A stretch of 44,011 bases of DNA from Bacteroidia bacterium (GCA_035275625.1 DATEMK010000564.1:1-44011); one strand, 5' to 3'. Numbered from the stretch's first letter, positions 204 to 43,201 are shown. Numbers and translations are program-made. The notes: generated from the sequence alone by a model not told the origin.

Positions 204-231
204 AACTTCAAACTTCAAACTTCAAACCCTT
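204..231. repeat. Heptamer stutter (AACTTCA x3 plus one degenerate unit) in the 5' leader
   Basis: AACTTCA AACTTCA AACTTCA AACCCTT, ending 4 nt before ATG 236. Confidence 0.9.
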
Positions 232-235
232 TCAC

Positions 236-1159
236 ATGAGCCTTCTCGTTGTCGGCACCGTAGCCTTTGATGCCATTGAAACACCTTTCGGAAAAACGGA
301 TAAAATAGTTGGCGGAGCTGCCACGTATGCCTCGCTTGCAGCCTCTTATTTTACAAAAAACATAAATCTTGTTTCGGTGGTGGGTGATGATTTTCCGGCT
401 GACGTGATAAAGAAGTTTAACAAGCATGGAATCAATACTGACGGCTTGCAGATCAAGAAAGGCGAAAAATCTTTTTTCTGGAGTGGAAAATACCACAACG
501 ATATGAACACAAGGGATACGCTTGACACACAATTGAATGTCCTTGCCGATTTTGATCCCCTTATTCCTGAACTTTACCAGGATTGCGAGTTTTTAATGCT
601 GGGTAATTTAATGCCACGCGTTCAGCAGCAAGTGATGGATCGTATGACGAAACGTCCTAAGCTTATTGTGATGGATACAATGAATTTCTGGATGGAAATT
701 GCCTGGGATGAATTAATGAATACCATAAAACGTGTGGATGTGCTTACTGTTAACGATGCAGAAGCACGCCAGCTTACCAATGAATATTCACTTGTAAAAG
801 CTGCGCAAAAAATTCTGCAGATGGGTCCCCGGTATCTTGTCATAAAAAAAGGCGAACACGGTGCTTTACTGTTTTTTGAAGAACAGGTTTTTTTCGCACC
901 TGCGCTGCCGTTAGAAGATGTATTTGATCCCACCGGAGCCGGTGATACCTTTGCCGGAGGCTTTATAGGTTATCTTGCCCGCACAAAAGATGTTTCTTTT
1001 GAAAACATGAAACGCGGAATTATTTACGGCTCTGCAATGGCATCTTTTTGCGTGGAAAAATTCGGCACCGAACGTATCATTGAACTTAAGCAGGAAGAAG
1101 TGGAAGAGCGCGTGCAGGAATTTGTAGATTTGGTGCAGTTTGATATCACGCTGGTGTAA
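236..1159 (+). CDS. PfkB-family carbohydrate/nucleoside kinase
   Basis: ORF 182..1159. The first ATG is at 236 (MSLLVVGTVAFD...). PfkB signature DPTGAGDTFAGGFIGYLA lies near the C-terminus. Confidence 0.88.
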   Translation: MSLLVVGTVAFDAIETPFGKTDKIVGGAATYASLAASYFTKNINLVSVVGDDFPADVIKKFNKHGINTDGLQIKKGEKSFFWSGKYHNDMNTRDTLDTQLNVLADFDPLIPELYQDCEFLMLGNLMPRVQQQVMDRMTKRPKLIVMDTMNFWMEIAWDELMNTIKRVDVLTVNDAEARQLTNEYSLVKAAQKILQMGPRYLVIKKGEHGALLFFEEQVFFAPALPLEDVFDPTGAGDTFAGGFIGYLARTKDVSFENMKRGIIYGSAMASFCVEKFGTERIIELKQEEVEERVQEFVDLVQFDITLV

Positions 1160-1196
1160 GCCATCAACGAATTTTCCAAATTTCAATTTCTATCTT

Positions 1197-2840: not shown

Positions 2841-2871
2841 TATCTATTGCAAAATTGTTAAATGATACCAT

Positions 2872-2910
2872 AACAATTTAACAATTTAGCAATTTGACAA
2901 TCATTCAATC
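2872..2910. repeat. Octamer stutter (AACAATTT family)
   Basis: AACAATTT AACAATTT AGCAATTT GACAATCA TTCAATC, between convergent xth and the SET-domain gene. The same word recurs at 13103-13142. Confidence 0.85.
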
Positions 2911-3370
2911 AAACATTCTTCTTTTTCAACTTTTCCCTTTTTTCACTTGCCTCAAGTCTTCTATTATATTTGATATCACTCCAGTATTCCGCTCCGTAGC
3001 CAACAAGTATCTCAGAATACGGTGGAATATTTTTGAATGAATAGATATAGCATTTGTTCCCGACAATTTTATAAGAAGAATTATTTAAAAGCCCTTTTTG
3101 TGTTTTTATTCCTTTTGCATCATTTGCGTAACGCGCTAATGCTTCAGGATGATTGTATGCATCTATACAACGGTTTTTATTTATGTAAAATAAATACCCG
3201 TAGCGGTTTTTTTGTACACGCTCATCATATTCTTTATAAGAAATTATATCGCCCGTATATTCCACAATGCGGGTTCCTTTCTTAATGAATTTATCCGTAA
3301 ACAATCCTTTTCCTGCATGAGGCAAAGAAGATTTTTTTACATAAAGCATGCAAAGATTTTTTATCTCCAA
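2909..3370 (-). CDS. SET-domain protein (putative protein-lysine methyltransferase)
   Basis: GKGLFT...GTRIVEYTGDIISYKEY, ...ARYANDA..., ...ILVGYGAEYW match the SET core and post-SET pattern. Confidence 0.8.
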   Translation of the reverse strand: MEIKNLCMLYVKKSSLPHAGKGLFTDKFIKKGTRIVEYTGDIISYKEYDERVQKNRYGYLFYINKNRCIDAYNHPEALARYANDAKGIKTQKGLLNNSSYKIVGNKCYIYSFKNIPPYSEILVGYGAEYWSDIKYNRRLEASEKREKLKKKNV

Positions 3371-3380
3371 TGGTAAATTT

Positions 3381-4028
3381 TTATACTGAATAAAATTCCA
3401 TGACCATCAGCTCGATTGCAAATCCTATAAACAGCCCGGCATAAATCTGCATTTGCGTATGTGTTCCGCGAATGAGCCGTGCCGTCCCGATCAATCCTGA
3501 AAGTAAGATCAAAATTATAAATGGTATTGTAACCGGGATGTATAATATTTCGGATAGCCCCCATGTGAGTCCTAACACGCCTCCTATTCCCATCGTATGA
3601 ACGCTGACTTTCCATTTCAGATTGATGAAAAATCCTGCAACGATAACTAACGCAGCGCCTAAAATAATGAGGGGGAAAAAAGCCGGAACCGGAAGCATTT
3701 TCAGCAAATAAAAAGCAATGAGATAAAAAAATATGGTTGCGATATAGGGTATTTTCCTTTCTTCTTTCTTTTCCAATTCAAGAGAGCCGACTATTTTTTT
3801 TTGTACAAGAAACATGGTAAACAAAACCGGCATCACAAAAGTGGTGATGAATACAACGATGAAAATGATCCGTTGCAGTTGCGGAGAAATACTGTAAGAA
3901 ATATAAGCCGGCAAATTAAAAATTAACAGCATCGAATAAAAAGGCATCATCAACGGATGAAATACATAAGATAAAATATTTGCTGCAGTACGGGACAAAG
4001 GAAAGTTAATGTTAAAATCGGGGTGCAA
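3381..4028 (-). CDS. Polytopic membrane protein, PAP2-like (tentative)
   Basis: About 6 hydrophobic helices. SVHTMG and ARLIRGTHTQMQ resemble the PSGH and SRxxxxxH motifs of PAP2 phosphatases. The first motif is unclear. Confidence 0.5.
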   Translation of the reverse strand: MHPDFNINFPLSRTAANILSYVFHPLMMPFYSMLLIFNLPAYISYSISPQLQRIIFIVVFITTFVMPVLFTMFLVQKKIVGSLELEKKEERKIPYIATIFFYLIAFYLLKMLPVPAFFPLIILGAALVIVAGFFINLKWKVSVHTMGIGGVLGLTWGLSEILYIPVTIPFIILILLSGLIGTARLIRGTHTQMQIYAGLFIGFAIELMVMEFYSV

Positions 4029-4073
4029 TATGAAATAAGAGGCGCAAAAATAGAGAATATGAGCCTGAAAAAG

Positions 4074-5585: not shown

Positions 5586-5743
5586 GTTTCAAAAATAATG
5601 AATTAAAGATAATTTTTTGGTTGTACGATGAATACAGCTTTTGGTTTTTATCTTATACCTTTTAAGTACAAAAAAAATGTAATTGTGTAAGATTATTAAT
5701 AAATTGAATTAAAAGTAAAGATTTTGATCTGCAAAAGTTGATT

Positions 5744-7129
5744 TCAAAATTCAGCATTCATCGGAGTACGTGGAAAAGGAATCACATCACGAATGTTGGT
5801 CATCCCGGTGACAAATAATATAAGGCGTTCAAAACCCAGGCCGAAACCAGCATGAGGTACTGTTCCATATTTACGTGTTTCAAGATACCACCACATGCTT
5901 TCTTCAGGAATTTTCATTTCCTTAATTCTGCTGTACAGCCTGTCATAATTTTCTTCCCGCTGCGATCCTCCGATGATTTCTCCTATCCATGGAAATAAAA
6001 TATCCATTGCCCGCACTGTTCTTCCATCTTCATTCTGCTTCATGTAAAATGCTTTAATCTCTTTCGGATAATCGGTGAGGATAACAGGGCATTTGAAATG
6101 ATCTACCAAAAAATTTTCGTGTTCCTTCTGCAGATCAGTTCCCCAACTGACCGGAAATTCAAATTTTTTATCCGATCCTTTTAATATTTCAACGGCTTCT
6201 GTATAAGTGAGTCGCTGGAAATCTTTGCTGACAACCGATTGTAATCTTGTGATCAATTCCTTGTCATACATTTTATTTAAGAATTGCAAATCATCCATGC
6301 AGTTGTCAAGAGCATATTGGACAAGATATTTTAACATGTCTTCGGCAAGATCCATGTTGTCCTTGATATCATAAAAAGCCATTTCGGGTTCAATCATCCA
6401 GAATTCTGCAAGATGGCGCGGTGTGTTTGAATTCTCCGCACGAAATGTCGGACCGAAGGTGTAAACCAATCCCAGGGCAAGCGCGGCAAGTTCTCCTTCT
6501 AATTGTCCTGAAACAGTAAGGTTGGTTTCTTTTCCAAAAAAATCTTTTTTAAAATCAATTCCCCCATTTTCGTTTCGCGGGATTTTATCCAGGTCAAGAG
6601 TGGTAACATGAAACATTTCTCCTGCACCTTCGGCATCTGAACCGGTAATGATGGGAGAATGCAAATAAAAAAATCCGCGGTCGTTAAAATATTTATGAAT
6701 TGCAAAAGCCATTGCATGGCGAATGCGGAATATCGCTCCAAAGGTGTTTGTGCGTGGACGCAGATGTGCAATCTCACGAAGAAATTCAAGCGTGTGTCCT
6801 TTTTTCTGCAAAGGAAATTTTTCAGGATCGGCAGTTCCATACACTTCAATTTCTGTTGCCTGGATTTCTACCGGCTGCTCCTGCCCCTTAGATTCTACCA
6901 AAGTTCCGGTAACTGAGACGGATGCACCGGTGGTAATTTGTTTTAAAAGTTCTTCATTAAATTTATTCGGATCGGCAACTACCTGGATGTTATGAATAAC
7001 GGAGCCGTCATTCACTGCAATAAATGCCACGTTCTTGTTGCCGCGTTTGGTACGCACCCAGCCTTTTACATTTACACTGCTGTTAAATGCAGTTGATTTT
7101 AATAATTCTTTAATAAATGTTCGTTTCAC
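5744..7129 (-). CDS. asnS: Asparagine--tRNA ligase
   Basis: Class II aaRS motifs [27 protein letters not shown] and GFGLGFERL. The ORF starts with GTG (cac on the + strand at 7127-7129). Confidence 0.95.
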
Positions 7130-7138
7130 TTTAAAAAA

Positions 7139-7201
7139 GTTTAGGGTTTAGCGTTTAAAGTTTGGGGTTAACTCTAAACCCTCAGCTCTAAACTCCAGAC
7201 A
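7139..7201. repeat. Nine phase-locked heptamers forming the asnS leader
   Basis: GTTTAGG GTTTAGC GTTTAAA GTTTGGG GTTAACT CTAAACC CTCAGCT CTAAACT CCAGACA. The two halves are imperfectly complementary. Confidence 0.85.
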
Positions 7202-7207
7202 AATTTA
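7200..7207 (-). promoter_or_regulatory. Candidate -7 box (TAAATTTG on the minus strand) for asnS
   Basis: CAAATTTA on the + strand. It overlaps the stop codon of the upstream gene and lies immediately upstream of the stutter leader. Confidence 0.3.
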
Positions 7208-11548: not shown

Positions 11549-11833
11549 ATGATTCTCTTCCGTATTCTTTGGGTTATTGATGCAATCGTTGCACTAATCG
11601 TTTTATATTTTTTCATTATCGGGCTGGGAGATGGCAGCGTGTCTTCTTATAACAGCACACTGTGGGGTGGAATTCTCGCTGCATTGGCAGGAATACTCGG
11701 AGGAAGCATTTTATTAAAATCGGCAGGGCAGTTAAAAATTGCAAAAGCTTTGCTTTGGGTATTAGCAATACCAGCGCTGTTGTATGGCTTGTTTATTTTA
11801 GTTTTTGTTTTTTCCGGTGCAAAGTGGAATTAA
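11549..11833 (+). CDS. Small membrane protein (3 predicted helices)
   Basis: 94-aa hydrophobic ORF; no family recognised. Confidence 0.45.
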   Translation: MILFRILWVIDAIVALIVLYFFIIGLGDGSVSSYNSTLWGGILAALAGILGGSILLKSAGQLKIAKALLWVLAIPALLYGLFILVFVFSGAKWN

Positions 11834-12965: not shown

Positions 12966-13045
12966 GTTACATCAACAATTGCCTGCCTGCCGTCAGGCAG
13001 GCGAATGGGTACGAATATACGAATGAGTTTGCAGTAATCGGTGTT

Positions 13046-13066
13046 CAGTGATCAGTAAACAGTAAA
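13046..13066. repeat. Heptamer stutter CAGTGAT CAGTAAA CAGTAAA
   Basis: Read directly. The same CAGTAAA word recurs at 15595-15615. Confidence 0.85.
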
Positions 13067-13102
13067 CCGTTCGGAGAAAAGCCGGAAAGCAAACAACAAA
13101 AA

Positions 13103-13178
13103 CAATTTAGCAATTCAGCAATTTAACAATAATGCAATTTCAAATCGTACATCGTACATCTTACATCGTACATCTTTG
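13103..13178. repeat. Octamer stutter (CAATTTAG family x5) followed by heptamer stutter (ATCGTAC family x5) in the MMPL leader
   Basis: CAATTTAG CAATTCAG CAATTTAA CAATAATG CAATTTCA / ATCGTAC ATCGTAC ATCTTAC ATCGTAC ATCTTTG. Confidence 0.9.
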
Positions 13179-13205: not shown

Positions 13206-15614
13206 ATGTTTTTATTTATTTCAAAGTTCATTTTACGCAATCGGATTCCACTACTTATTTTCATGTCAGTGATAACGGCTTTTTTTGCTTACCAGGCAAC
13301 CAAAATTCAGTTAAGCTATGATTTTGCAAAAGTGCTGCCCGAAACGGATAAGTATTTTATCGAATACGAAAAATTTAAGCGGCAGTTTGGTGAAGATGGC
13401 AGCGTGCTTGTGATTGGAGTGAAGGATAAAGATTTTTTTCAGCTCAAAAAATTCAATGAATGGTTTACTCTCGGAAACGAAATAAAAAGCATTGACGGCA
13501 TTGAAGCGGTGGTTTCAGCAGCCAATATTTACAACATCACAAAAAATGAAGAAGCAAAAAAGTTTGATGTAAAACCGCTTGTCACGCACACACTGAGCTT
13601 GCAGCGGGAAGTAGACAGCATCAAAAATATTTTGGATCATCTTGTATTTTACCAGGGGTTTATCATCAACAAAGAAACAGATGCAACATTGATGGCAATC
13701 ACTTTTGACAAGAAAAAATTAAATACCAAAAACCGGATAGAAATTGTAAATATCATCAAAGAGAAAGCGCTGGCTTTCGGTAAGTCAAATAATGTGGAGG
13801 TTCATTTATCTGGCTTGCCATATATCAGGACTGCTGTGACAAAAATGGTGTCGGATGAACTTAAATTGTTTTTACTGCTCGCTCTCGGAGTTTGTTCTGT
13901 CATCCTTCTATTCTTTTTTAAAAATGTCCGGGTAGTTTTGTTTTCGCTTTTAGTCGTGATTGCCGGAGTAGTATGGTCTCTCGGCACATTATCTTTAATG
14001 GGATTCAAGATAACTATTCTTTCCTCTCTCATTCCTCCGCTGATCATTGTTATCGGAATTCCCAACAGCATTTTTTTTCTGAATAAATATCACACAGAAT
14101 ATCGCCTGCACCGGAATAAAATAAAAGCGCTGCAGCAAATGGTGCAGCGGATAGGGCTTACAACTTTTCTGGCCAATACAACATCAGCCATCGGCTTTGG
14201 TGTTTTCTATTTTACAAACAGCAATATATTGATGGAGTTTGGATTAATTGCGGCTATCAATGTAATGTCCACTTACCTGATCTCTTTAATTTTAATTCCG
14301 ATTATGTTCAGCTTTTTGCCTGCGCCTTCCATTAAGCATACAGAACATTTGCAGGGGAAAAAAATAAGCTTCCTTTTAGAATCCATTGACAAATGGGTTC
14401 ATCATAAAACAAAAATTATTTATGCTGTTGTGATTGCATTGCTGCTGGTTTCTTTTTATGGCATGAGCAAGCTGAATACGATAGGATATGTGGTGGATGA
14501 TCTTCCCAAAAAAAATCCTGTGTATCTTGATTTGAAATTTTTTGAAAGCAATTTTCACGGAGTGCTGCCTTTTGAAATTTCAATTGACGCTAAAGAAAAA
14601 GGCAAAGCGCTTCAGCATGTCACCTTGCAAAAAATAAACCGGCTTACCAAAGAATTAAATACGCATGCAGAATTTGCAAAACCGCTTTCAGTTGTTGATA
14701 TTATCAAATTTGTCAACCAGGCATACAATGACGGTGAGCCGAAATATTATATTTTACCGGGAAGCATTGAGTTAGGGCAGATCGCTGAATACCTCGGAGA
14801 AATGAAAAATAAGCAAAGCATGTTTCGTTCATTTATTGACAGCACGAAACAAATCACCCGTGTGAGTGTGCAAATGGCAGATGTTGGTTCCGTGCGAATG
14901 AAACAATTGGTGAATGAGCTCAAACCAAAAATTGATTCTATTTTCCCCCCGGCTAAATACAAAACAACCATTACCGGCAACAGCCTGATCTTTTTGAAAG
15001 GAAACGATTACCTTTTTACAAATCTTTTGGAAAGTGTTTTCCTTGCCATCTTTTTAATTTCAATCATTATGTTTCTTTTGTTTATGTCATTCCGCATGAT
15101 AGCTCTCAGCATTTTACCGAGCGTGATCCCTTTATTTATTACTGCCGGACTGATGGGTTATTTTCATATTCCTTTAAAACCTTCTACCATACTTATTTTC
15201 AGCATTGCATTTGGAATTGCCTCAGACGGAACCATTTATTTTCTTACAAAATACAGGCAGGAAATGCGTCATAAGCACATGAGCATTTCAAAAGCGGTTT
15301 CACTCACCATTAAAGAAACGGGAGTAAGCATGATCTACACTGCAGTGATTTTGTTTGCAGGATTTTTTATTTTCACGGCTTCCAGCTTTGGGGGGACTGC
15401 ATCGCTGGGTGTTTTAATTTCAATAACTTTATTGGTTGCCATGTGTTCCAACTTAATTTTGCTTCCTGCATTTCTTATTTCGCTTGAAAGAAAAATGACT
15501 ACCAAAGCATTCCTGCAGGAGCCGTTGTTACAATTTCTCAATGAAGACGAAGATATTGAGCTTGATGAGTTGGAGATAAGGAAGAACGAAAACACAGTAA
15601 ACAGTAAACAGTAA
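13206..15614 (+). CDS. RND-superfamily exporter of the MMPL/HpnN-like type
   Basis: 802 aa, with two blocks of about 6 TM helices each preceded by a large soluble loop. Sterol-sensing-like TM block. Confidence 0.8.
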   Translation: MFLFISKFILRNRIPLLIFMSVITAFFAYQATKIQLSYDFAKVLPETDKYFIEYEKFKRQFGEDGSVLVIGVKDKDFFQLKKFNEWFTLGNEIKSIDGIEAVVSAANIYNITKNEEAKKFDVKPLVTHTLSLQREVDSIKNILDHLVFYQGFIINKETDATLMAITFDKKKLNTKNRIEIVNIIKEKALAFGKSNNVEVHLSGLPYIRTAVTKMVSDELKLFLLLALGVCSVILLFFFKNVRVVLFSLLVVIAGVVWSLGTLSLMGFKITILSSLIPPLIIVIGIPNSIFFLNKYHTEYRLHRNKIKALQQMVQRIGLTTFLANTTSAIGFGVFYFTNSNILMEFGLIAAINVMSTYLISLILIPIMFSFLPAPSIKHTEHLQGKKISFLLESIDKWVHHKTKIIYAVVIALLLVSFYGMSKLNTIGYVVDDLPKKNPVYLDLKFFESNFHGVLPFEISIDAKEKGKALQHVTLQKINRLTKELNTHAEFAKPLSVVDIIKFVNQAYNDGEPKYYILPGSIELGQIAEYLGEMKNKQSMFRSFIDSTKQITRVSVQMADVGSVRMKQLVNELKPKIDSIFPPAKYKTTITGNSLIFLKGNDYLFTNLLESVFLAIFLISIIMFLLFMSFRMIALSILPSVIPLFITAGLMGYFHIPLKPSTILIFSIAFGIASDGTIYFLTKYRQEMRHKHMSISKAVSLTIKETGVSMIYTAVILFAGFFIFTASSFGGTASLGVLISITLLVAMCSNLILLPAFLISLERKMTTKAFLQEPLLQFLNEDEDIELDELEIRKNENTVNSKQ

Positions 15615-15650
15615 ACAATTGGTCAACCTCAAACTTCAAACCTCAAACCT
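15595..15650. repeat. Eight phase-locked heptamers spanning the MMPL stop codon and the rfbA leader
   Basis: CAGTAAA x3, CAATTGG, TCAACCT, CAAACTT, CAAACCT x2. It ends 3 nt before ATG 15654. The MMPL TAA stop (15612-15614) lies inside the third CAGTAAA. Confidence 0.9.
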
Positions 15651-16522: not shown

Positions 16523-16662
16523 GTTATTAGTTATTAGTTATTAGTTATTAGTTAATTGTTAATTGTCAGTTACTGGTTGTCGGTCCTGAATTGTGAATTG
16601 TGAATTATAAATTGTACTTTGTACTTTGTAAATCTTAAATCGTATATCTTAAATCATACATC
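16523..16662. repeat. Twenty heptamers in perfect register, filling almost the whole rfbA-epimerase spacer
   Basis: GTTATTA x4, GTTAATT x2, GTCAGTT, ACTGGTT, GTCGGTC, CTGAATT, GTGAATT x2, ATAAATT, GTACTTT x2, GTAAATC, TTAAATC, GTATATC, TTAAATC, ATACATC. AAAAAG and ATG 16669 follow. Confidence 0.95.
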
Positions 16663-17610: not shown

Positions 17611-17750
17611 TTTTTTATGATGGACAAAATAAAATGATGGTGGACTTGATGGTTACCTTTTATATGCTGCCTTTAAACCCCAAATTCTTTAATCTCATTT
17701 TTTGAACTGTAAACTGTAAATTTCTGCTCCTCACCCCGATCCCTGACCAA

Positions 17751-22468: not shown

Positions 22469-22620
22469 GGTTTAAGGGTTTAACGTTTATGCCGTCCCGA
22501 TAACTATCGGGATCGGGAAAGTCAAAGGTTACCGGCAGGTTTTAAATCAGGTTTATTTTTATCAAAGTTAGAAAAATTGTATTAAAGAATACGAATTAAG
22601 AAGCTCCTTAAAATTTTTGC

Positions 22621-30779: not shown

Positions 30780-31006
30780 CTCGGGGAAGAATGGTTTAAG
30801 GTAAGGTTTAAAGTTTAAGGTTTTCGGATCCTTGTGGATTTAAAATCCTTAAATAATTATTCTGAATGTGAATTTTTAAACCAAACCCTGATTATTTTTT
30901 TTAATTTTTTAATTTCCGGCTTAGAAAGTCGGCTAAAATAAAACAAAATTTAATACGAATACGAGTGAATGCGAACTGCATCTGCACGTTTTCACAGTGA
31001 ATTAGT

Positions 31007-31601: not shown

Positions 31602-31625
31602 GTAATTGGGTAATTGGGTAATTGG
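31602..31625. repeat. Octamer stutter GTAATTGG x3 in the ruvA leader
   Basis: Read directly. It is preceded by the degenerate unit GCAATTA and begins 11 nt upstream of the ruvA ATG. Confidence 0.9.
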
Positions 31626-31668: not shown

Positions 31669-31676
31669 CAAAAGTA
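31669..31676 (-). promoter_or_regulatory. Candidate -7 box (TACTTTTG on the minus strand) for ruvA
   Basis: CAAAAGTA on the + strand, 78 nt upstream of the ruvA ATG. The stutter lies between the box and the ATG. Confidence 0.3.
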
Positions 31677-32225: not shown

Positions 32226-32229
32226 TTGA
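31738..32229 (+). pseudogene. Conceptual heptad-repeat ORF (I-x-G/C/S-x-L-x-x, 22 heptads) interrupted by one TAA; coding status unproven
   Basis: ATG 31738 to TGA 32227-32229 is open except for TAA at 31990-31992. Synonymous-type variation occurs at the conserved Ile, Gly and Leu codons. There is no family match and the antisense frame is also largely open. Confidence 0.3.
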
Positions 32230-38243: not shown

Positions 38244-38285
38244 AGACCAAAGACCAAAGACCATTGACGAGTGACAAAAGTGAGT
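38244..38285. repeat. Six phase-locked heptamers (AGACCAA family)
   Basis: AGACCAA AGACCAA AGACCAT TGACGAG TGACAAA AGTGAGT, downstream of the beta-helix gene. Confidence 0.85.
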
Positions 38286-38305: not shown

Positions 38306-40015
38306 TTAAAAATCTTTTATTTGAAATACATATCCATACTTCCATGCAGGATTATTCTGAACGCGGCAGAATTTATTTCCGTTCAAACCATTTTGCGGTG
38401 CAAATGTATTGTTGCTGTCGGATGAGTTCTCGTTCAAATCTATTTCAATAAAATAAAGCCTTTCATTTTTTCTTGAGGGAGATTTTTCATTGAACGTATT
38501 GCTGATGAAAGTACAGCCCATAAATCTTCCGAGGAAACCTCTCAGGGGAGAATCAGGGAATTGAGGAATTATTTTAACAAGGTCATTCACATAAAATTTC
38601 CAGTTGCAATGATTGAAGATTCTCTCCGAATTTCCATCTTTACTTTCAACAGTAGTTATTGCCAGTGTTTTATGAATTTCAAAATTGCAGTAATTGAATT
38701 CATAAAAATGGTCATCGGGTGGATCAATTCCGAAATCAATCAAATAACCGCCCCAAAAAGAAAGTGTGTCTTTAGCCCCTTTTCTCCAGTCAGTGATGGT
38801 ACAGTTATTAAATTTCATACGGTCAGCAGAATCAATTCCGGCCACATGTGTAAATCTTCCCCTGATAATGCAATCATTGAAAACAGTTCGAATCATTCCT
38901 TTGGGCCAGATGCTCCACGAACCGGCATGAGAAGCGGAAAACTCGCAATCATTAAAAGTGATGTCCGAAACATAGGGAAAATGATTGTCAGAAATCAGTC
39001 CGCAAAACATGTTATCCAGAAATTTACAATTGGCAAATTTGATGTTCACACAACTTCCACCGGCTTCCGGCTCAATGTCAACGCCTGCTCCCGGGTTGTT
39101 GTAAAATACGGTTCCCGTATTTGAAAAGATGCCGTTAACGACATTAATATTGGTCCCCGCAGTAATGCTCAGGCCCTGCCTTGAATTGGCGGAGCAGGTA
39201 ATATTTTCAAGATGTATGCAGTCAGGATTGCCATTTGAGTAGCAAAGCATGATACCGTCACGCCCGAAATTATTGCACGTAATATTTTTTACTGTTATAT
39301 TCTTAGAACCAAATACGTCAATGCCATCATGACCTATTTGATAACCGTTGCATTCGCCAAAAAATCCTCCAAGTTTCATTTTAGTATTGTTGCCATTCAT
39401 TTCAATCTGCTCAATCGTTATGCAGGAACTGTTCTTTATGTGAATAAAAGTTCCCAGCGTGGCATAGGCGTTGTAATCCTTAGTGGTGCTGCAGGCTTCG
39501 TTTGAGGGTATATACGAAACCGGTTGCATCTGCTTATCATATCCGCCAAAAGGCAAACCGTTTTTGTATTTGATAACGGTTCGTTTGCTCCCTGAAATAA
39601 TTATGTTTTTTGCATTCTCCAATTCCATCATGTTTACACCCTTACGGGTAATGCGGATGTCATTCACAAAACTTTGCTCATTGCGCAGAGGATTGGTTAT
39701 TTTCTGACCAGGTTCAAGCTGCAATCCTACAAGATAAGTTCCCGGTGGAATGTATAATTTAAGTATAAAAGAATCGCTGCAATTTTTATTGAGCCAGTCA
39801 GAGGCAGCGAGGAAAGAAAAGGAGTCGTCATGTTTATTATTGCCTTTCGCGCCAAAGTCTGCTTTAAGATCTTTTGTGATGATCTGTAAAGGTGTTTTGC
39901 ATTGGCAATTGTTTTCAAACGCAGCCTGCTCTCCCGATTTTGCAGAGATAAAAGCTGCGACCAGGAATGTTCCGCAAATAATAACCGTGAATACTAAGAG
40001 CAGGTTTCTTTTCAT
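38306..40015 (-). CDS. Secreted right-handed parallel beta-helix protein (pectate-lyase-superfamily / tailspike-like glycanase fold)
   Basis: Signal anchor; DFGAKGNNKHDDSFSFLAA N-terminal motif. Successive PbH1-type coils: ITVKNITCNNFGRDGI, IHLENITCSANSRQGL, INVVNGIFSN, IKFANCKFLDN, ITFNDCEFS, MKFNNCTITD. Confidence 0.78.
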   Translation of the reverse strand: MKRNLLLVFTVIICGTFLVAAFISAKSGEQAAFENNCQCKTPLQIITKDLKADFGAKGNNKHDDSFSFLAASDWLNKNCSDSFILKLYIPPGTYLVGLQLEPGQKITNPLRNEQSFVNDIRITRKGVNMMELENAKNIIISGSKRTVIKYKNGLPFGGYDKQMQPVSYIPSNEACSTTKDYNAYATLGTFIHIKNSSCITIEQIEMNGNNTKMKLGGFFGECNGYQIGHDGIDVFGSKNITVKNITCNNFGRDGIMLCYSNGNPDCIHLENITCSANSRQGLSITAGTNINVVNGIFSNTGTVFYNNPGAGVDIEPEAGGSCVNIKFANCKFLDNMFCGLISDNHFPYVSDITFNDCEFSASHAGSWSIWPKGMIRTVFNDCIIRGRFTHVAGIDSADRMKFNNCTITDWRKGAKDTLSFWGGYLIDFGIDPPDDHFYEFNYCNFEIHKTLAITTVESKDGNSERIFNHCNWKFYVNDLVKIIPQFPDSPLRGFLGRFMGCTFISNTFNEKSPSRKNERLYFIEIDLNENSSDSNNTFAPQNGLNGNKFCRVQNNPAWKYGYVFQIKDF

Positions 40016-40196
40016 AAGACCGGGACTAAATTAATGAATTGGAATTGTCCCGAAGACAATGTCATTAAGTTAAGCCCGTTAAATGAAATTCGATCATATG
40101 CGTCAGCATCCCTCCCCTCCGGGGAGGTCAGGTGGGGCTTGATCAATTGTTAATTGTTTACAATTTGCTCCCGCCTCCCGGCTCCCGACTCCTGTC

Positions 40197-40204
40197 TATA
40201 TTTG
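40197..40204 (+). promoter_or_regulatory. Candidate -7 box (TATATTTG) for the AhpD-like gene
   Basis: Exact TAnnTTTG match 14 nt upstream of ATG 40219. A second ATG lies at 40228. Confidence 0.3.
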
Positions 40205-40218: not shown

Positions 40219-40569
40219 ATGATTCACATGAACATACTCGTAAAGCAATTTAACGACTACCGGCAGCGGATGAATGAAAAAATCCTTGCGGCTGATAACA
40301 CAGTTATTAAACGTTTGTATAATTTAGATACAAACACTTACCTGGAAGGGGCTCTTTCAGTAAAATCAAAAGAAATGATGGGGCTGGTGGCTTCGCTCGT
40401 TTTGCGTTGTGATGATTGTGTAAAATACCATCTTGGAAAATGCAAAGAATGTAATGTCACCACGGAGGAACTTTTTGAGATTTTTGCCGTTTGTAATATT
40501 GTAGGTGGCACAATTGTTATTCCCCATACGCGAAGAGCGGTGGAGTATTGGGAAGCGCTTGGGGATTGA
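40219..40569 (+). CDS. Carboxymuconolactone decarboxylase / AhpD-like family protein
   Basis: 116 aa with the CxxC motif in LRCDDCVKYHL, typical of the AhpD core. Confidence 0.82.
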   Translation: MIHMNILVKQFNDYRQRMNEKILAADNTVIKRLYNLDTNTYLEGALSVKSKEMMGLVASLVLRCDDCVKYHLGKCKECNVTTEELFEIFAVCNIVGGTIVIPHTRRAVEYWEALGD

Positions 40570-43112
40570 AAAATATCAGCGAATACGAATTAACAAACAG
40601 AACTTTGAACTTTAAACTTAACTCGTACATTGTAAATTGTACATCGTACATAATTAAAAAGTTTTTACTTGTCCTTTTTGGAATATTATTTTTTTCCACA
40701 ATAAGCAATGCGCAAACCTGGAGCATTTCGGGAAAAGTTATTGACGCCTTAACACGCGACCCGGTTGATTATGCGTATGTCACCGCAACGGGTGATTCAG
40801 CTTTTGCAGTTACTGATGCAGATGGAAACTATACCATATATATAAGCAGTTCTGCAAAGGCTATCGCTGTTTTAGCAGACGGCTATGCAAAATTTACCAT
40901 ACCGGTAAAAAATATTATCAGGATGACTCTGAATGTGGAGCTTACAGCCAATGCATCACGGGTGACAACTGAAGCAAATAAAGCAGGGGAGAAACCGGTG
41001 GAATATCTTGTGGAAAAAATAATTGAAAACAGGGATAAGAACGATCCTGTAAATAATGATTATTTCAGCTATCGCACGTATGAAAAAATAGAATTTGACC
41101 TTGCAAATGTTTCAGATAAGATCAAAGAAAAAAAAGTCATGAAACCGTTTGCATTTATTTTTGATAACATGGATTCCGTTACCACTAACGGGAAACCATT
41201 CCTGCCTTTCTTTTTTACTGAAACCCTTTCCGATGTATATTATGAGCATAAGCCAAAACAAAAGCGTGAAATAGTTATTGCAAGCAAAACAGCCGGGGTT
41301 GAAAACTTAACCCTGATTCAATTGCTCAAAGACATTTACCGCGACATAACAATTTATGATAATTACATCAATGTTTTCGGAAAAAGCTTTATCAGCCCTG
41401 TTTCAAATGAAGGGTTGAAACATTATGATTATTTAATCAGGGATACTACCATTATTGACGGGAAAACGTGTTATAAAATTATTTTTTCGGCAAAGAAAAA
41501 ATTCGATCTCACGTTTAATGGTGAGTTCTGGTTTCACGACACTACGTTTGCTGTTCAGCGCATCACTATGTATCTTAATAAAGATGCCATGATAAATTTT
41601 GTAGACGATTTTAAATTTGTAAAAGTTTTCAAAAATATTGATGACAATAAATGGGTGTCTGACCGTGAACAATTAGTGGTGCAGTTCTCCAACCGCGAAA
41701 AGGGAATGAGCATCATCGGGCGAAAATCACAATATTATGCAGACACAAAAATCAATCAGCCTCCGGCTGATTCAGTTTTCAAAATAACATCCACCATTCG
41801 TTTTGATCCAATGGCGTATGATCAGCCCAACAAGTTCTGGAGAGACGAACGGCTTGAAAAACTTACAGACCGTGAAAAAGATATATATGATTTAGTGGAC
41901 ACCTTAAAAAAACTGCCTGCATTCCAGATCTATGTAGGTTCGGTGGTGGTTGCATTAACCGGTTATGTGCCTTATGGCAAAATTGACTATGGCCCTTATT
42001 ATCATTTAATCACTAACAACACTTTAGAAGGAATCAGGTTCCGTTTTGGCGGGCGAACAAATGAAAAATTCAGCACGCGCTGGCAATTTGAAGGCTATGG
42101 CGCTTATGGCACATTGGACGGAACTTTCAAATACATGGGAGGGATACGTTATGCTATTAAAAGAAAACCTTTTAAGGCAATAGGCTTCCAGTATAAAAAT
42201 GATGTGGTGCAACCCGGCTTGTATGAAGGATATTTTAAAGACGAAGGATGGATTGTAATTTTATTTAAACGCAATCCTTCCGACAAAATGTGTAAAGTTG
42301 AATCTCAAAAAGTTTACTATGATGCAGCCTACCGTTCGGGATTGTCCTTTCGCCTGCAGTATCTTAAAAATCATTACACCACTGTTGGCAACATTAATTT
42401 TGATTATTATGCCAATGACAGCAGAACGATAATAAAAAATGATTTGCACACCTCGGAATTCTGGCTGAGCGCAAGATATTCTTACGGAGAAAAATTTATT
42501 GAAAAAAAATACAAGCGGTATTCGCTGGGTTCTGATAATCCTGTTTTCCAGCTAAACTACATAAAGGGTTTGAAAAATTTCCTGGATGGCGAATTCAGTT
42601 ATTCTAAAATTGCAGCGAGATTGACTGACAAGCTTAATTTATTTCCTTACGGACATTTGAATTATTCCTTTGAAGCGGGAAAAGTTTTTGGAAATGTTCC
42701 CTATCCGCTGCTGTATGTGCATCGCGGCAATGAATCGCGGCTTTTTGATTACACAGCATTTAATTTAATGAATCATTACGAGTTTGTTTCTGACAGGTAT
42801 GCAGGCGCAAGTGCTGAACATCATTTTGACGGTTTTGCTTTGCGCAGAATTCCATTGATAAGAAAATTGGACTGGCGCGAAATTGTTTCAGCCAGGATAT
42901 TGTTCGGCCATCTGTCACAGAAAAACAAAGAGATTTTATTTGATCCGGCTAATGTCTCTAACATACGTACCACACCCTATATAGAAGCCGGTGTTGGCCT
43001 TGAAAATATTTTGAAACTGATACGAATTGATGCGCTTTGGCGTTTAACCTATCTTAATAATCCCGTTGCGTCAAACTTTGGCGTACGTGCAAGCCTTCAG
43101 TTATTGTTCTGA
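40548..43112 (+). CDS. Carboxypeptidase-regulatory-like domain plus DUF5686-like outer-membrane-associated protein
   Basis: SGKVIDALTRDPVDYAYVT CarboxypepD_reg pattern after the signal peptide (I)KKFLLVLFGILFFSTISNAQ. The coordinates give the maximal ORF from TTG 40548, which overlaps the previous gene. The real start is probably TTG 40605, or ATT 40653 directly after the stutter leader. Confidence 0.78.
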   Translation: MGSAWGLKNISEYELTNRTLNFKLNSYIVNCTSYIIKKFLLVLFGILFFSTISNAQTWSISGKVIDALTRDPVDYAYVTATGDSAFAVTDADGNYTIYISSSAKAIAVLADGYAKFTIPVKNIIRMTLNVELTANASRVTTEANKAGEKPVEYLVEKIIENRDKNDPVNNDYFSYRTYEKIEFDLANVSDKIKEKKVMKPFAFIFDNMDSVTTNGKPFLPFFFTETLSDVYYEHKPKQKREIVIASKTAGVENLTLIQLLKDIYRDITIYDNYINVFGKSFISPVSNEGLKHYDYLIRDTTIIDGKTCYKIIFSAKKKFDLTFNGEFWFHDTTFAVQRITMYLNKDAMINFVDDFKFVKVFKNIDDNKWVSDREQLVVQFSNREKGMSIIGRKSQYYADTKINQPPADSVFKITSTIRFDPMAYDQPNKFWRDERLEKLTDREKDIYDLVDTLKKLPAFQIYVGSVVVALTGYVPYGKIDYGPYYHLITNNTLEGIRFRFGGRTNEKFSTRWQFEGYGAYGTLDGTFKYMGGIRYAIKRKPFKAIGFQYKNDVVQPGLYEGYFKDEGWIVILFKRNPSDKMCKVESQKVYYDAAYRSGLSFRLQYLKNHYTTVGNINFDYYANDSRTIIKNDLHTSEFWLSARYSYGEKFIEKKYKRYSLGSDNPVFQLNYIKGLKNFLDGEFSYSKIAARLTDKLNLFPYGHLNYSFEAGKVFGNVPYPLLYVHRGNESRLFDYTAFNLMNHYEFVSDRYAGASAEHHFDGFALRRIPLIRKLDWREIVSARILFGHLSQKNKEILFDPANVSNIRTTPYIEAGVGLENILKLIRIDALWRLTYLNNPVASNFGVRASLQLLF
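40600..40655. repeat. Eight phase-locked heptamers (GAACTTT to CATCGTA family)
   Basis: GAACTTT GAACTTT AAACTTA ACTCGTA CATTGTA AATTGTA CATCGTA CATAATT, followed by AAAAAG as at 16663-16668. Confidence 0.88.
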
Positions 43113-43166
43113 ATGGATACCGGAAAAAATGTAAAATTAATTTATACTATTTTCGTTCCCGTTTTA

Positions 43167-43201
43167 GTAATCAGTGATCAGTAGCCAGTAGTCAGTTGAG
43201 A
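43167..43201. repeat. Five phase-locked heptamers (GTNNTCA family) in the lptB leader
   Basis: GTAATCA GTGATCA GTAGCCA GTAGTCA GTTGAGA. The same TCAGTGATCAGTA word occurs at 13045-13057. Confidence 0.85.

What the first reader, a model, noticed from the sequence alone, without database searches (positions are those of the whole stretch)
204..43201. The same few stutter words recur at many loci, usually between a -7 box and the start codon
Phase-locked 7-nt (sometimes 8-nt) stutters occur at 204-231, 2872-2910, 7139-7201, 13046-13066, 13103-13178, 15595-15650, 16523-16662, 17705-17718, 31602-31625, 38244-38285, 40600-40655 and 43167-43201. Words are shared between distant loci. CAGTAAA is at 13053 and 15595. 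TCAGTGATCAGTA is at 13045 and 43171. The (C)AATTTAGCAATT word is at 2883 and 13103. The ATCGTAC/CGTACAT family is at 13144, 16640, 40622, 40642 and 43250. The CAAACTT/TCAAAC family is at 204 and 15630. GTTTAAG/GTTTAGG is at 7139, 22470 and 30795. For pfkB, asnS and ruvA an exact TAnnTTTG box lies just upstream of the tract and the start codon 4-11 nt downstream, so the tracts would form the 5' UTR. Established knowledge says Bacteroidota largely lack Shine-Dalgarno pairing and favour unstructured A/U-rich leaders. My inference is that these tracts are leader or spacer modules generated by slippage, possibly tunable in length. I do not recognise them as a named repeat family.
Basis: partly seen in the sequence, partly recalled or inferred. 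Interest (0 to 1): 0.6.

Follow-up and report, generated by a model that had tools for sequence, protein, structure and literature searches.

The report
Polar heptamer repeats at gene boundaries
The short 7- or 8-base stutters between the genes of this uncultured Bacteroidota bacterium are real and number about 750 across the genome, but they belong to a class of bacterial heptamer repeats that was described years ago and is still unexplained, so this is a new example and not a new kind of element.

Summary
The stutters are real. All listed sites are 7- or 8-nt tandem tracts, and the shared words check out. Genome-wide (5.45 Mb MAG) there are 745 tracts. Perfect period-7 arrays of 3 or more copies number 157, against 1 in a Markov control. 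Only 13-29% of tract bases lie in ORFs, against 89% of the genome.

1. **Polarity.** The G-bearing strand reads 5'->3' away from the nearest gene. Leaders are therefore G-free (80:13) and trailers G/T-rich (77:28). Every window tract with a clear G/C bias obeys this.
2. **Hairpins.** About a quarter of tracts are arms of G-first hairpins (64:4, including 10:0 between convergent genes).
3. **IVP genes.** All 8 PF05635 four-helix-bundle genes of the genome sit between such arms.

The "-7 box" claim holds for four window genes but for only 19% of near-start tracts genome-wide. Many tracts lie after stop codons, so "leader module" is only part of the story.

The class, the near-start placement, the polarity and the inverted pairs are published (Mrazek 2007; MacGregor 2015; Rehm 2015; cyanobacterial STRR). 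This scan has already reported the same thing on other DNA (at least 80 notes).

Verdict: new member of a known, unexplained kind.

The parts
203..231 (+). (AAACTTC)x3.6 followed by AAACCC. It forms the leader of a pfkB-family kinase gene (ATG at 236). An exact -7 box, TAGCTTTG, lies at 177-184.
   Evidence: TRF score 50; box position; RNA fold gives 0 kcal/mol.
2846..2901 (.). Octamer-word hairpin (AAATTGTT / AACAATTT) between convergent genes. Arms are 2846-2863 and 2876-2893, with the G-bearing arm first.
   Evidence: arms 94% complementary; fold -14.6 and -16.0 kcal/mol on the two strands, z -4.4 and -3.1. The same-genus genome G001 has no spacer here.
7138..7187 (-). asnS leader. On the + strand a GTTTAGG-type array faces an inverted CTAAACC arm. 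In the mRNA sense this forms a hairpin whose C-type arm ends 9 nt before the GTG start. The -7 box TAAATTTG is at 7200-7207.
   Evidence: fold -21.3 kcal/mol, z -2.8. G001 has GTTTAAA x3 at the same place with a different second arm.
13045..13178 (+). Divergent spacer holding three arrays: CAGTGAT/CAGTAAA (13045-13067), AACAATTT octamers (13095-13140) and ATCGTAC x4.4 (13144-13174). The last two are C-type in the sense of the RND transporter gene (ATG at 13206). A GC-rich palindrome lies at 12981-13002.
15594..15650 (+). (ACAGTAA)x3.4, which contains the stop codon of the RND gene, followed by (AACCTCA)x3.7 ending 3 nt before the rfbA ATG. This is an intercistronic spacer with no exact -7 box.
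   Evidence: fold 0 kcal/mol. Relatives without tracts have spacers of 3-39 nt here.
16523..16662 (+). A continuous array of 20 heptamer units that fills the rfbA-rfbB spacer. The word drifts from G/T-type (GTTATTA) just after the stop codon to C/A-type (TAAATCT, TACATCA) just before the start codon.
   Evidence: lag-7 identity 0.72 over 154 nt. G001 has 87 nt with ATTCGTAA words and G009 has 457 nt with TTTTAGT words.
17705..17720 (+). (AACTGTA)x2.3, a minimal tract in the spacer upstream of the polyprenyl synthase gene.
   Evidence: G001 has an AATTCC/AACTTC tract in this spacer instead.
22469..22512 (-). GGTTTAAG/GGTTTAAC tract. In gene sense it reads ...AAACGTTAAACCCTTAAACC directly before the ATG. 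It abuts the palindrome TCCCGATAACTATCGGGA (22495-22512). The -7 box TAACTTTG is at 22563-22570.
   Evidence: The palindrome belongs to a family of 64 copies in the genome.
30793..30823 (-). (GGTTTAA)x4.7, which is C-type (AAACCTT) in the sense of the 2425-aa gene whose GTG start is at 30779.
31602..31625 (-). (GTAATTGG)x3, which reads CCAATTAC x3 in the sense of ruvA (ATG at 31591). The -7 box TACTTTTG is at 31669-31676. The same word forms the arms around the IVP gene on contig C473.
38235..38285 (-). (ATAGACC/AAGACCA) array just downstream of the stop codon of the minus-strand gene 38306-40015. In that gene's sense it is G-type (GGTCTTT).
40168..40192 (+). (CTCCCGA)x3.6. It lies upstream of the -7 box TATATTTG (40197-40204) of the CMD-family gene, so it sits in promoter DNA and not in the leader.
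40600..40655 (+). GAACTTT x2.9 followed by TCGTACA/TTGTAAA x4.1, after the stop codon at 40569. The TTGTACA word also forms the arms around the IVP gene on contig C235.
43166..43262 (+). A G-type array after the stop codon (AGTAATC/CAGTGAT, 43166-43196), then a GC hairpin (43217-43237), then a C-type tract AAATCCT AAATCGT ACATTCT (43240-43262) running up to the ATG at 43263.
   Evidence: G001 keeps the tract before the start codon but has a different module after the stop codon.

Best explanation
The tracts are heptanucleotide (and some octanucleotide) long simple-sequence repeats. They are the AT-rich Bacteroidota counterpart of cyanobacterial STRR, the TAACTGA repeats of Beggiatoaceae, and the GGGAATC repeats of Xanthomonas.

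**Proposed working (inferred).** Short seed words at gene boundaries are multiplied and remodelled in place by unit-wise duplication and loss (slipped-strand mispairing). From general knowledge, 7-8-nt loops escape mismatch repair. The arrays turn over quickly between species.

**What survives is strongly polar (shown).** The G-bearing strand runs 5'->3' away from the nearest gene.
- Before a start codon the mRNA therefore carries a G-free, structure-free A/C/U run that ends about 4-10 nt from the start. This fits the Shine-Dalgarno-poor, A-rich initiation regions of Bacteroidota.
- After a stop codon the mRNA carries a G/U-rich run with stop codons in several frames.

**Pairs and spread (shown).** About a quarter of tracts are paired into G-first hairpins. 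A few word families are spread around the genome together with small conserved palindromic modules.

**Not shown.** A regulatory role in translation or in transcript processing is possible but is not demonstrated.
For: **Class features**
- Period 7 is uniquely enriched. Perfect arrays of >=3 copies: period 7, 157 vs 1 in the control; period 8, 23 vs 0; period 5, 28 vs 8; period 6, 19 vs 0. TRF rows with score >=40: 363 vs 1.
- Tracts are intergenic. 29% of period-7 and 13% of period-8 tract bases lie in ORFs, against 89% of the genome.
- Intergenic lag-identity peaks at 7, 14 and 21.

**Polarity**
- Tracts within 10 nt of a start codon are C>G in gene sense 80:13. Tracts within 10 nt after a stop codon are G>C 77:28. 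In convergent spacers the ratio is 43:13.
- The same double-stranded words are flipped between the two positions. AAACTTT:AAAGTTT is 14:1 before starts and 3:6 after stops. AAACCTT:AAGGTTT is 11:0 and 2:8.
- Every window tract with a clear G/C bias obeys the rule.
- Genes without tracts also have G-poor leaders (G = 0.10 at -20..-1), so the leader orientation fits a general constraint.

**Local duplication**
- Unit divergence rises from 0.175 for neighbours to about 0.22 at separation 3-4.
- The 16515-16668 spacer drifts stepwise.

**Turnover**
- In the same-genus genome G001, spacers without tracts keep their length (31/30, 45/46, 158/166 nt). Spacers with tracts differ in length and word.

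**Placement**
- 91 genes have at least two AAACYTY units within 60 nt upstream. In 62 of them the last AAAC lies 6-16 nt before the ATG, with no fixed register.

**Published parallels**
- Same placement: MacGregor 2015 (PMC4679880), which also reports indels in 7-nt increments between Cyanothece strains.
- Same polarity rule and convergent inverted pairs: Rehm 2015 (PMC4692102).
Against: - No direct evidence of slippage. The nearest genome is only about 75-84% identical in genes, so gain or loss of 7-nt units cannot be told apart from replacement.
- Word use is much more concentrated than slippage of random seeds predicts. AAACTTT makes up 54 of 71 tracts among 20 words of equal composition. 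AATGACC makes up 22 of 30 among 60.
- Hairpin polarity is G-first 10:0 even between convergent genes, where no leader constraint acts. Selection on leaders therefore cannot be the whole cause of the polarity.
- Part of the bias after stop codons may come from C-type words that lack stop codons and are read through into ORF tails. Counting those, the ratio falls to 166:102.
- Some arrays are linked to conserved loops or hairpin elements and to IVP genes. This points to a dedicated generating or spreading mechanism.
- Gene calls here are my own crude ORF calls.
Confidence: 0.55

Rival explanations
1. The arrays are the arms, or leftover single arms, of a family of periodic palindromes. The gene-carrying form of this family holds a PF05635 ('23S rRNA intervening-sequence protein', Avd-like four-helix-bundle) gene in its loop. 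The arrays and their G-first polarity come from that element's own mechanism of formation or spread, not from ordinary replication slippage. One possibility is repeat addition at 3' ends on both sides of a break, followed by fill-in. The window's unpaired tracts would then be decayed or half copies.
For: - All 8 PF05635 genes over the cut-off in this genome have 7/8-nt tracts within about 100 nt. Five have TRF-scored tracts at both ends, and two more have a short second arm. The two arms carry the same word, inverted.
- Background for genes of 95-165 aa is 14.4% with a tract at any end and 1.8% at both ends.
- In 29 IVP loci from 29 related genomes, inverted arms of >=12/14 occur in 15, against 1 in the control.
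- Five of the eight strong pairs separated by more than 150 nt enclose an IVP gene.
- 175 of 745 tracts have an inverted partner of >=13/14 within 600 nt, against 14 in the control. The G-arm comes first 64:4 within one spacer, and 10:0 between convergent genes.
- AAGGTTT...AAACCTT palindromes share the loop GTTCTTAGTCGCGTCAGCCAAC in about 9 copies.
- Window words GTAATTGG and TTGTACA are also IVP arm words.
- Neither 2015 paper mentions this gene.
Against: - There are only 8 IVP genes against 745 tracts.
- The commonest words (AAACYTY, about 130 sites) have no IVP cassette in this assembly, which is 94% complete.
- No recombinase, reverse transcriptase or target-site duplication was identified.
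- In the window only 2 of about 14 loci are paired, and no IVP gene is present.
- The continuous drifting array at 16523-16662 looks like growth in place, not like an inserted arm.
- The association could run the other way: IVP genes may simply land in, or be tolerated in, hairpin loops.
Confidence: 0.25
2. The C-type tracts are dedicated cis-acting leader elements. They would be arrays of binding sites for a single-strand RNA-binding protein (ribosomal protein S1, or a cold-shock-type OB-fold protein covering about 7 nt each) that promote or tune translation. Copy number would serve as an evolvable dial.
For: - Tight placement. The last AAAC lies 6-16 nt before the ATG in 62 of 91 genes.
- Extreme orientation bias before start codons: 25:1 for the two main words.
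- Avoiding the C-type orientation in trailers would make sense if such tracts drive initiation.
- The leaders have no predicted structure.
- The words recur in scattered Bacteroidota families. AAACYTY x3 is present in 14 of 150 sampled genomes.
- MacGregor 2015 proposes S1, Csp or CsrA and cites heptamer-wise binding by CspB.
Against: - Many unrelated words are used, so there is no single motif.
- There is no fixed register to the start codon.
- The same words occur flipped after stop codons and between convergent genes.
- Orthologous genes in relatives do without the tracts, with spacers of 2-50 nt.
- The downstream genes in the window are unrelated housekeeping genes.
- G-poor leaders are general in this genome.
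- No expression data are available.
Confidence: 0.15
3. The tracts are contingency loci. On this view they are simple-sequence repeats that switch specific genes on and off (phase variation) by changing promoter spacing or leader length.
For: The repeats are tandem and lie upstream of genes. One tract (40168-40192) lies in promoter DNA just upstream of a -7 box.
Against: - There are hundreds of loci next to housekeeping genes (asnS, ruvA, rfbA), not next to surface or restriction genes.
- Half of the tracts are downstream of genes.
- Units of 7-8 nt between the box and the start codon do not change promoter spacing.
- Rehm 2015 reached the same negative conclusion for Xanthomonas.
Confidence: 0.03

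Closest known systems
Long simple-sequence repeats with 5-11-nt units, heptanucleotides predominating (Mrazek, Guo and Shah 2007; known here only through its citation in PMC4679880 and PMC4692102)
   Same: Head-to-tail arrays longer than chance allows. Period 7 is by far the commonest. The arrays are intergenic and have a scattered phylogenetic distribution. Polymerase slippage is the proposed origin.
   Different: That survey did not include this lineage. Here the words are AT-rich, a few word families dominate, and a strict gene-relative polarity is seen.
GGGAATC and GGGGA(C/T)T heptamer repeats of Xanthomonas and Nostoc PCC 7120 (Rehm et al. 2015, PMC4692102)
   Same: The polarity rule is identical: the G-rich strand lies on the antisense strand within 50 bp upstream of an ORF, or on the sense strand within 50 bp after (or overlapping) the stop codon. 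Convergent inverted pairs are frequent. The repeats have no link to IS elements and are not phase-variation loci.
   Different: Those repeats are G-rich and form G-quadruplexes in vitro, which the authors took as the functional clue. The words here (AAACCTT, AACAATTT, ATCGTAC and others) cannot form G4 yet follow the same rule. This argues that G4 formation is not the common cause.
TAACTGA direct repeats of marine Beggiatoaceae, Cyanobacteria and five Bacteroidetes (MacGregor 2015, PMC4679880)
   Same: Heptamer direct repeats in 'forward' orientation ending a few nucleotides before start codons. Occasional reverse copies follow stop codons. The downstream genes share no functional theme. Translational control through S1, Csp or CsrA was proposed.
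   Different: That work concerns one word only, and TAACTGA itself is not among the common words here. The nearest window word is TCAGTGA, whose complement TCACTGA differs from TAACTGA by one base. This genome uses dozens of words plus octamers.
STRR (short tandemly repeated repetitive) heptamers of heterocystous cyanobacteria (described in PMC2670836; the word list CCCCAGT, TTGGTCA, CAACAGT is from my memory of Mazel et al. 1990)
   Same: 7-bp units, intergenic location, ability to form hairpins between genes (hupS-hupL), unknown function. The longest arrays of this genome (up to 32 copies, C200:1570-1795) are rotations of TTGGTCA.
   Different: A different phylum. Whether the shared word reflects common descent, transfer or convergence was not tested.
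REP/BIME elements and MITEs
   Same: Small intergenic palindromes present in many copies. Here these include CCCGATAGCTATCGGG (64 copies), CCTGCCGGCAGG (72), CCGCCTNAGGCGG (81) and a roughly 65-nt GCCAC...GTGGC hairpin, often embedded in the word arrays.
   Different: The tracts themselves are tandem arrays of variable word and length. They have no conserved ends, no target-site duplications and no RAYT or transposase partner identified.
ORF-bearing intervening sequences of 23S rRNA (the PF05635 family)
   Same: A small four-helix-bundle gene sits in the loop of a long stem formed by inverted flanks.
   Different: Here the cassettes lie between protein-coding genes and not inside rRNA, and the stems are built of heptamer repeats. 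RNase III processing was not tested.

Membership tests
Heptanucleotide long simple-sequence repeats (LSSR) | Head-to-tail tandem copies of a 5-11-nt unit, longer than expected from genome composition. | tested here: met
   TRF rows with score >=40: period 7, 363 vs 1; period 8, 155 vs 3 in a 3rd-order Markov genome. Perfect arrays of >=3 copies: 157 vs 1.
Heptanucleotide long simple-sequence repeats (LSSR) | Period 7 predominates over neighbouring periods. | tested here: met
   Perfect arrays of >=3 copies for periods 5, 6, 7, 8 and 9: 28, 19, 157, 23 and 4. Intergenic lag-identity peaks at 7, 14 and 21.
Heptanucleotide long simple-sequence repeats (LSSR) | Units that are not a multiple of 3 are excluded from coding DNA. 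| tested here: met
   29% of period-7 and 13% of period-8 tract bases lie in ORFs, against 89% of the genome. For periods 6 and 12 the figure is 81-96%.
Xanthomonas/Nostoc-type polar heptamer repeats (Rehm 2015) | The G-bearing strand is antisense just upstream of ORFs and sense just after stop codons. | tested here: met
   80:13 before starts, 77:28 after stops, 43:13 in convergent spacers. Still 166:102 after adding tracts read through into ORF tails.
Xanthomonas/Nostoc-type polar heptamer repeats (Rehm 2015) | Convergent inverted pairs are frequent. | tested here: met
   175 of 745 tracts have an inverted partner of >=13/14, against 14 in the control. The G-arm comes first 64:4.
Xanthomonas/Nostoc-type polar heptamer repeats (Rehm 2015) | G-runs able to form G-quadruplexes. 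| tested here: not met
   Tracts near start codons are 6.5% G. The dominant words (AAACCTT, AAACTTT, AACAATTT, AAATCGT) have no GGG run.
TAACTGA repeats (MacGregor 2015) | The unit is TAACTGA. | tested here: not met
   TAACTGA (canonical form AACTGAT) is not among the 50 commonest units. One related locus, L006, has GTTATCA x3.5.
TAACTGA repeats (MacGregor 2015) | Forward orientation, ending within a few nucleotides of a start codon. | tested here: met
   For the AAACYTY family, 62 of 91 arrays end with the last AAAC 6-16 nt before the ATG.
Phase-variation (contingency) SSRs | Association with surface, restriction-modification or host-interaction genes, and frame or promoter-spacing switching. 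| tested here: not met
   The neighbouring window genes are asnS, ruvA, rfbA, an epimerase, an RND transporter and a polyprenyl synthase. Half of the tracts are downstream of genes.
Phase-variation (contingency) SSRs | Copy-number heterogeneity within a population. | not testable with these tools
REP/BIME or MITE | A conserved element sequence with defined ends, present in many copies. | tested here: inconclusive
   The tracts themselves have no conserved ends. However, subsets are tied to conserved modules: the loop GTTCTTAGTCGCGTCAGCCAAC in about 9 copies, and the GCCAC...GTGGC hairpin of which about 40 of the 75 pattern hits are bona fide copies. None of these modules is in the window, apart from GC palindromes at 12981-13002 and 22495-22512.
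REP/BIME or MITE | A cognate transposase (RAYT or IS) or target-site duplications. | not tested
   No search for RAYT or IS partners was made.
IVP (PF05635) periodic-palindrome cassette | A PF05635 gene lying between inverted arrays of the same 7/8-nt word. | tested here: not met
   No PF05635 gene lies in the window (on the small ORFs; all hits lie on other contigs). The cassette exists elsewhere in the genome at 8 of 8 IVP genes, and two window words match cassette arms.

The most novel reading that the evidence does not exclude
The heptamer arrays are made or spread by a dedicated system, not by generic slippage. That system's gene-carrying form would be the cassette [G-arm]-[PF05635 Avd-like four-helix-bundle gene]-[C-arm]. 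The gene-independent G-first polarity would be the footprint of that mechanism. One example is templated repeat addition to the 3' ends on both sides of a break, which would automatically give inverted arms of the same word with the G-strand pointing away from both flanking genes. If so, the decades-old STRR / heptamer-repeat puzzle would have a protein partner. Earlier agents of this scan raised this link on other genomes. Here it held at 8 of 8 IVP genes in this genome and in 15 of 29 loci from relatives.
Probability: 0.2. Interest if true: 0.75.

Novelty: new member of a known kind. Interest (0 to 1): 0.35.

Why it matters
Heptamer repeats have been known in cyanobacteria since about 1990, and in Xanthomonas and Beggiatoaceae since 2015, with no accepted origin or function. 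This genome is a very rich, AT-rich example.

- It follows the same polarity rule without any G-quadruplex potential, which weakens the G4 explanation offered for Xanthomonas.
- The polarity holds between convergent genes, so it is not only a by-product of leader selection.
- In Bacteroidota, which initiate translation largely without Shine-Dalgarno pairing, the arrays place ready-made G-free leaders directly on start codons. That effect on translation is testable.
- The tight link to PF05635 genes, if it holds widely, would give a first candidate protein partner.

For annotation, such tracts explain odd C-terminal tails (for example KLQTSNF repeats) and inflated spacers.

Tried and rejected
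- **Rfam and tRNA scans of the window:** nothing found.
- **Chance or composition:** rejected by the Markov control and by the test of word concentration among words of equal composition.
- **Cyanobacterial origin of the genome** (suggested by the STRR-like words): rejected. The best relatives are uncultured Bacteroidota/Bacteroidia MAGs.
- **Artefact of my ORF calls as the cause of the polarity after stop codons:** partly real. C-type words without stop codons are read through into ORF tails. The bias survives when these are counted, at 166:102.
- **Fixed spacing or register to the start codon:** not found.
- **A preferred array size of about 4 units:** perfect arrays decline monotonically in number with copy count (99, 45, 6, 4, 3). 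The apparent mode at 4 is at least partly a TRF threshold effect.
- **Cargo genes other than IVP inside long-separation pairs:** C355:2822-3313 looks, from its sequence and by eye only, like an ordinary PurE-like gene with an upstream hairpin. C23:5865-6110 is a spurious ORF in repeat DNA.
- **Literature search for the STRR words:** returned only primer noise.
- **Literature search for PF05635 together with heptamer repeats:** found no paper making the link.

Full report
**1. Observation**

Reading the sequence confirms them.

The shared words are exact:
- CAGTAAACAGTAAA at 13053 and 15595
- TCAGTGATCAGTA at 13045 and 43171
- CAATTTAGCAATT at 2882 and 13103
- ATCGTACAT at six sites, including 31583
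- CAAACTTCAAAC at 209, 216 and 15630

The rfbA-rfbB spacer (16515-16668) keeps lag-7 identity of 0.72 over its whole 154 nt while the word drifts stepwise. Exact TAnnTTTG boxes lie upstream of the tract for pfkB, asnS and ruvA, and also for the 21560-22468 gene.

**2. Genome-wide picture**

The window is contig C564 of a 5.45-Mb MAG with 643 contigs and 38.7% G+C. The closest relatives of its RND transporter are uncultured Bacteroidota/Bacteroidia MAGs at about 70% amino-acid identity.

| Measure | Real genome | 3rd-order Markov genome |
|---|---|---|
| Period-7 TRF rows, score >=40 | 363 | 1 |
| Period-8 TRF rows, score >=40 | 155 | 3 |
| Perfect arrays >=3 copies, period 7 | 157 | 1 |
| Perfect arrays >=3 copies, period 8 | 23 | 0 |
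| Perfect arrays >=3 copies, period 6 | 19 | 0 |
| Perfect arrays >=3 copies, period 5 | 28 | 8 |

Using my own crude ORF calls (4356 ORFs, 88.9% of the genome coding), only 29% of period-7 and 13% of period-8 tract bases lie in ORFs. Intergenic DNA shows lag-identity peaks at 7, 14 and 21. After removing overlaps there are 745 tracts, of which 487 have their midpoint in an intergenic spacer.

**3. Words**

Usage is concentrated far beyond what composition predicts:
- AAACTTT accounts for 54 of the 71 tracts of its base composition, out of 20 possible circular words.
- AAACCTT plus AAACTTC account for 68 of 100, out of 30 possible words.
- AATGACC (= TTGGTCA) accounts for 22 of 30, out of 60 possible words.

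The pattern AAACYTY x3 occurs in 128 windows in this genome, against 12 for the backwards control. It occurs 1-10 times in 14 of 150 other Bacteroidota genomes sampled, and was not found in the rest.

**4. Polarity**

In spacers between same-strand genes, tracts within 10 nt of a start codon are C>G in gene sense 80:13. Tracts within 10 nt after a stop codon are G>C 77:28. Convergent spacers give 43:13 G-type in the sense of the nearer gene, and divergent spacers give 72:29 C-type.

The same double-stranded words are simply flipped between the two positions:

| Word pair | Before starts | After stops |
|---|---|---|
| AAACTTT : AAAGTTT | 14:1 | 3:6 |
| AAACCTT : AAGGTTT | 11:0 | 2:8 |

Put another way, in any spacer the + strand reads G-type on the left and C-type on the right. 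Every window tract with a clear G/C bias obeys this.

Genes without tracts also have G-poor leaders (G = 0.10 at -20..-1) but show no skew after the stop codon. The leader half of the rule therefore fits a general Bacteroidota constraint. The trailer half does not.

One caveat. C-type words that lack stop codons get read through into ORF tails; 119 tracts lie inside ORFs, mostly 60-260 nt before the called stop codon. Counting them, the bias at gene 3' ends falls to 166:102 but persists.

**5. The -7 box claim**

Genome-wide, 27 of 140 genes with a near-start tract (19%) have an exact TAnnTTTG within 200 nt upstream, against 34% of genes without tracts. When a box is present it lies upstream of the tract in 24 of 27 cases, and the median box-to-start distance is 68 nt instead of 29 nt. 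Tracts do sit in predicted 5' UTRs when a promoter is nearby. Most tract-bearing spacers, however, look intercistronic, or are 3' or convergent spacers. The word 'usually' is not supported.

**6. Hairpins**

175 of 745 tracts have an inverted match of >=13/14 within 600 nt (reversed-sequence control: 14). At 14/14 the count is 102, against 1. Where both arms lie in one spacer, the G-arm is 5' in 64 of 68 cases. That includes 10:0 between convergent genes, where no start codon can select the orientation.

In the window only two loci are paired:
- 2846-2893: hairpin on both strands, z -4.4 and -3.1
- 7138-7187: the asnS leader, -21.3 kcal/mol, z -2.8

The pfkB and rfbA leaders fold at 0 kcal/mol.

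**7. Turnover**

For the RND-rfbA-rfbB block, relatives without tracts have spacers of 2-50 nt. This genome has 39 and 154 nt. The same-genus genome G001 has 90 and 87 nt with other words. G009 has 457 nt with yet other words.

Against G001 across the window:

| Spacer | This genome (nt) | G001 (nt) | Note |
|---|---|---|---|
| 3350-3380 | 31 | 30 | no tract |
| 4029-4073 | 45 | 46 | no tract |
| 5586-5743 | 158 | 166 | no tract |
| 2841-2908 | 68 | no spacer (genes overlap) | tract |
| asnS leader | 75 | 59 | tract |
| rfbB-GGPPS | 140 | 76 | tract |
| 43113-43262 | 150 | 98 | tract |

In the tract spacers the words are partly kept and partly replaced.

Within arrays, neighbouring units differ less (0.175 per site) than units 3-4 apart (about 0.22). 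This is the expected signature of local duplication.

**8. Links to other repeats and to a gene**

Following a lead from earlier notes of this scan, I searched the genome for PF05635 (23S_rRNA_IVP). There are eight genes over the cut-off.

- All eight have 7/8-nt tracts within about 100 nt. Five have TRF-scored tracts at both ends, and two more have a short second arm. The two arms carry the same word, inverted.
- Background for genes of 95-165 aa is 14.4% with a tract at any end and 1.8% at both ends.
- In 29 IVP loci from 29 related genomes, inverted arms of >=12/14 occur in 15, against 1 in the control. By eye about 22 loci have flanking arrays.
- The IVP gene sits in the loop, in the order G-arm, gene, C-arm.
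- The window holds no IVP gene. Its words GTAATTGG and TTGTACA are arm words of the C473 and C235 cassettes.

Other linked repeats:
- About nine AAGGTTT...AAACCTT palindromes share the loop GTTCTTAGTCGCGTCAGCCAAC.
- A roughly 65-nt hairpin element, GCCACGAATTACAC...AATTAGTGGC, with octamer-periodic arms, is embedded in AAACCTT arrays directly upstream of start codons. About 40 of the 75 pattern hits look like genuine copies. None is in the window.
- GC-rich palindromes CCCGATAGCTATCGGG (64 copies), CCTGCCGGCAGG (72) and CCGCCTNAGGCGG (81) are often set inside word arrays. Window copies lie at 22495-22512 and 12981-13002.

**9. What is known**

- MacGregor 2015 (PMC4679880) describes TAACTGA heptamer repeats ending a few nucleotides before start codons in Beggiatoaceae, Cyanobacteria and five Bacteroidetes, with reverse copies after stop codons. 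The paper proposes S1, Csp or CsrA binding. It also summarises Mrazek 2007: heptanucleotides are the commonest long SSR class, with a polymerase-slippage hypothesis.
- Rehm 2015 (PMC4692102) reports for GGGAATC and GGGGAYT repeats exactly the polarity rule found here, 70-75 convergent inverted pairs per genome, transcription of the repeats, and no link to IS elements or phase variation.
- STRR hairpins of 7-bp repeats between cyanobacterial genes are described in PMC2670836.
- Neither 2015 paper mentions PF05635. A full-text search found no paper linking PF05635 to heptamer repeats.
- This scan has already reported the class on other DNA: 80 notes in at least 77 genomes.

**10. Reading**

Class membership is secure. 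On mechanism, I favour growth and drift in place by unit duplication, combined with strong orientation-dependent retention (0.55).

The G-first polarity in convergent spacers, the word concentration and the IVP link keep open a dedicated generating or spreading mechanism (0.25). A specific translational leader function is possible but unshown (0.15). Phase variation is unlikely (0.03).

The AT-rich words following the Xanthomonas rule argue against G-quadruplexes as the common cause.

**11. Verdict**

The finding is real and quantitatively striking, but it is a new member of a known and unexplained kind.

Noticed in passing
G000 contigs C336:5125-5573, C473:880-1504, C89:4128-4616, C235:2736-3214, C346:22060-22549, C128:589-967, C140:2083-2520, C500:10517-11081: Every PF05635 ('23S rRNA intervening-sequence protein', four-helix bundle) gene of the genome lies between inverted arrays of one 7/8-nt word, a different word for each cassette. 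The same holds for about half or more of 29 such genes in related genomes.
   Followed up: partly
window 31722-32229: A 21-bp periodic array (TRF period 21 at 31911-31963) lies next to the ruvA leader. Genome-wide, period-21 TRF rows number 137, against 4 in the Markov control, and 58% of their bases are in ORFs. Its relation to the heptamers (3 x 7) was not examined.
   Followed up: no
G000, e.g. C30:7405-7530, C169, C315, C421, C641: A roughly 65-nt hairpin element GCCACGAATTACACCAATTAACACGAATATTTTAATTAGTGTAATTAGTGAAATTAGTGGC, with octamer-periodic arms. About 40 of the 75 pattern hits look like genuine copies. It is often inserted within AAACCTT arrays 10-30 nt upstream of start codons, sometimes with a CCTGCCGGCAGG palindrome in its loop.
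   Followed up: partly
window 12981-13002, 22495-22512, 43217-43237; genome-wide: Families of GC-rich short palindromes resembling REP elements: CCCGATAGCTATCGGG (64 copies), CCTGCCGGCAGG (72) and CCGCCTNAGGCGG (81). They are frequently set inside or beside the word arrays.
   Followed up: partly
G000 C200:1570-1795, C484:6305-6477, C501:518-678, C415:10218-10343, C217:5139-5244: The longest arrays of the genome (15-32 copies) are all rotations of TTGGTCA. From memory, this is the cyanobacterial STRR2 word. Whether this reflects transfer or convergence is unknown.
   Followed up: no
G000, e.g. C157:5266-5298, 6468-6514, 7692-7725; C290:26875-27052; C556:2499-2529; C27:2480-2518: 119 tracts lie inside long ORFs, mostly 60-260 nt before the called stop codon, and encode peptide repeats such as KLQTSNF. 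SSQWSVVSGQ recurs in several proteins of about 900 aa. The tracts may have been built into C-terminal tails, or the true stop codons may have been displaced.
   Followed up: partly
window 11831-11907: An inverted repeat with 31-nt arms, 81% complementary and not heptamer-periodic, lies in a spacer between my ORF calls 11549-11833 (+) and 11955-12965 (-).
   Followed up: no
L048 (G009:C3) 3006-3464: The orthologous rfbA-rfbB spacer of a relative in another genus is 457 nt. It holds TTTTAGT/TAGTTCA heptamers after the stop codon, followed by about 8 copies of a roughly 35-nt repeat (GAAGAACAAGGCTCACAGTGAACGTAACTAAGAAC).
   Followed up: no
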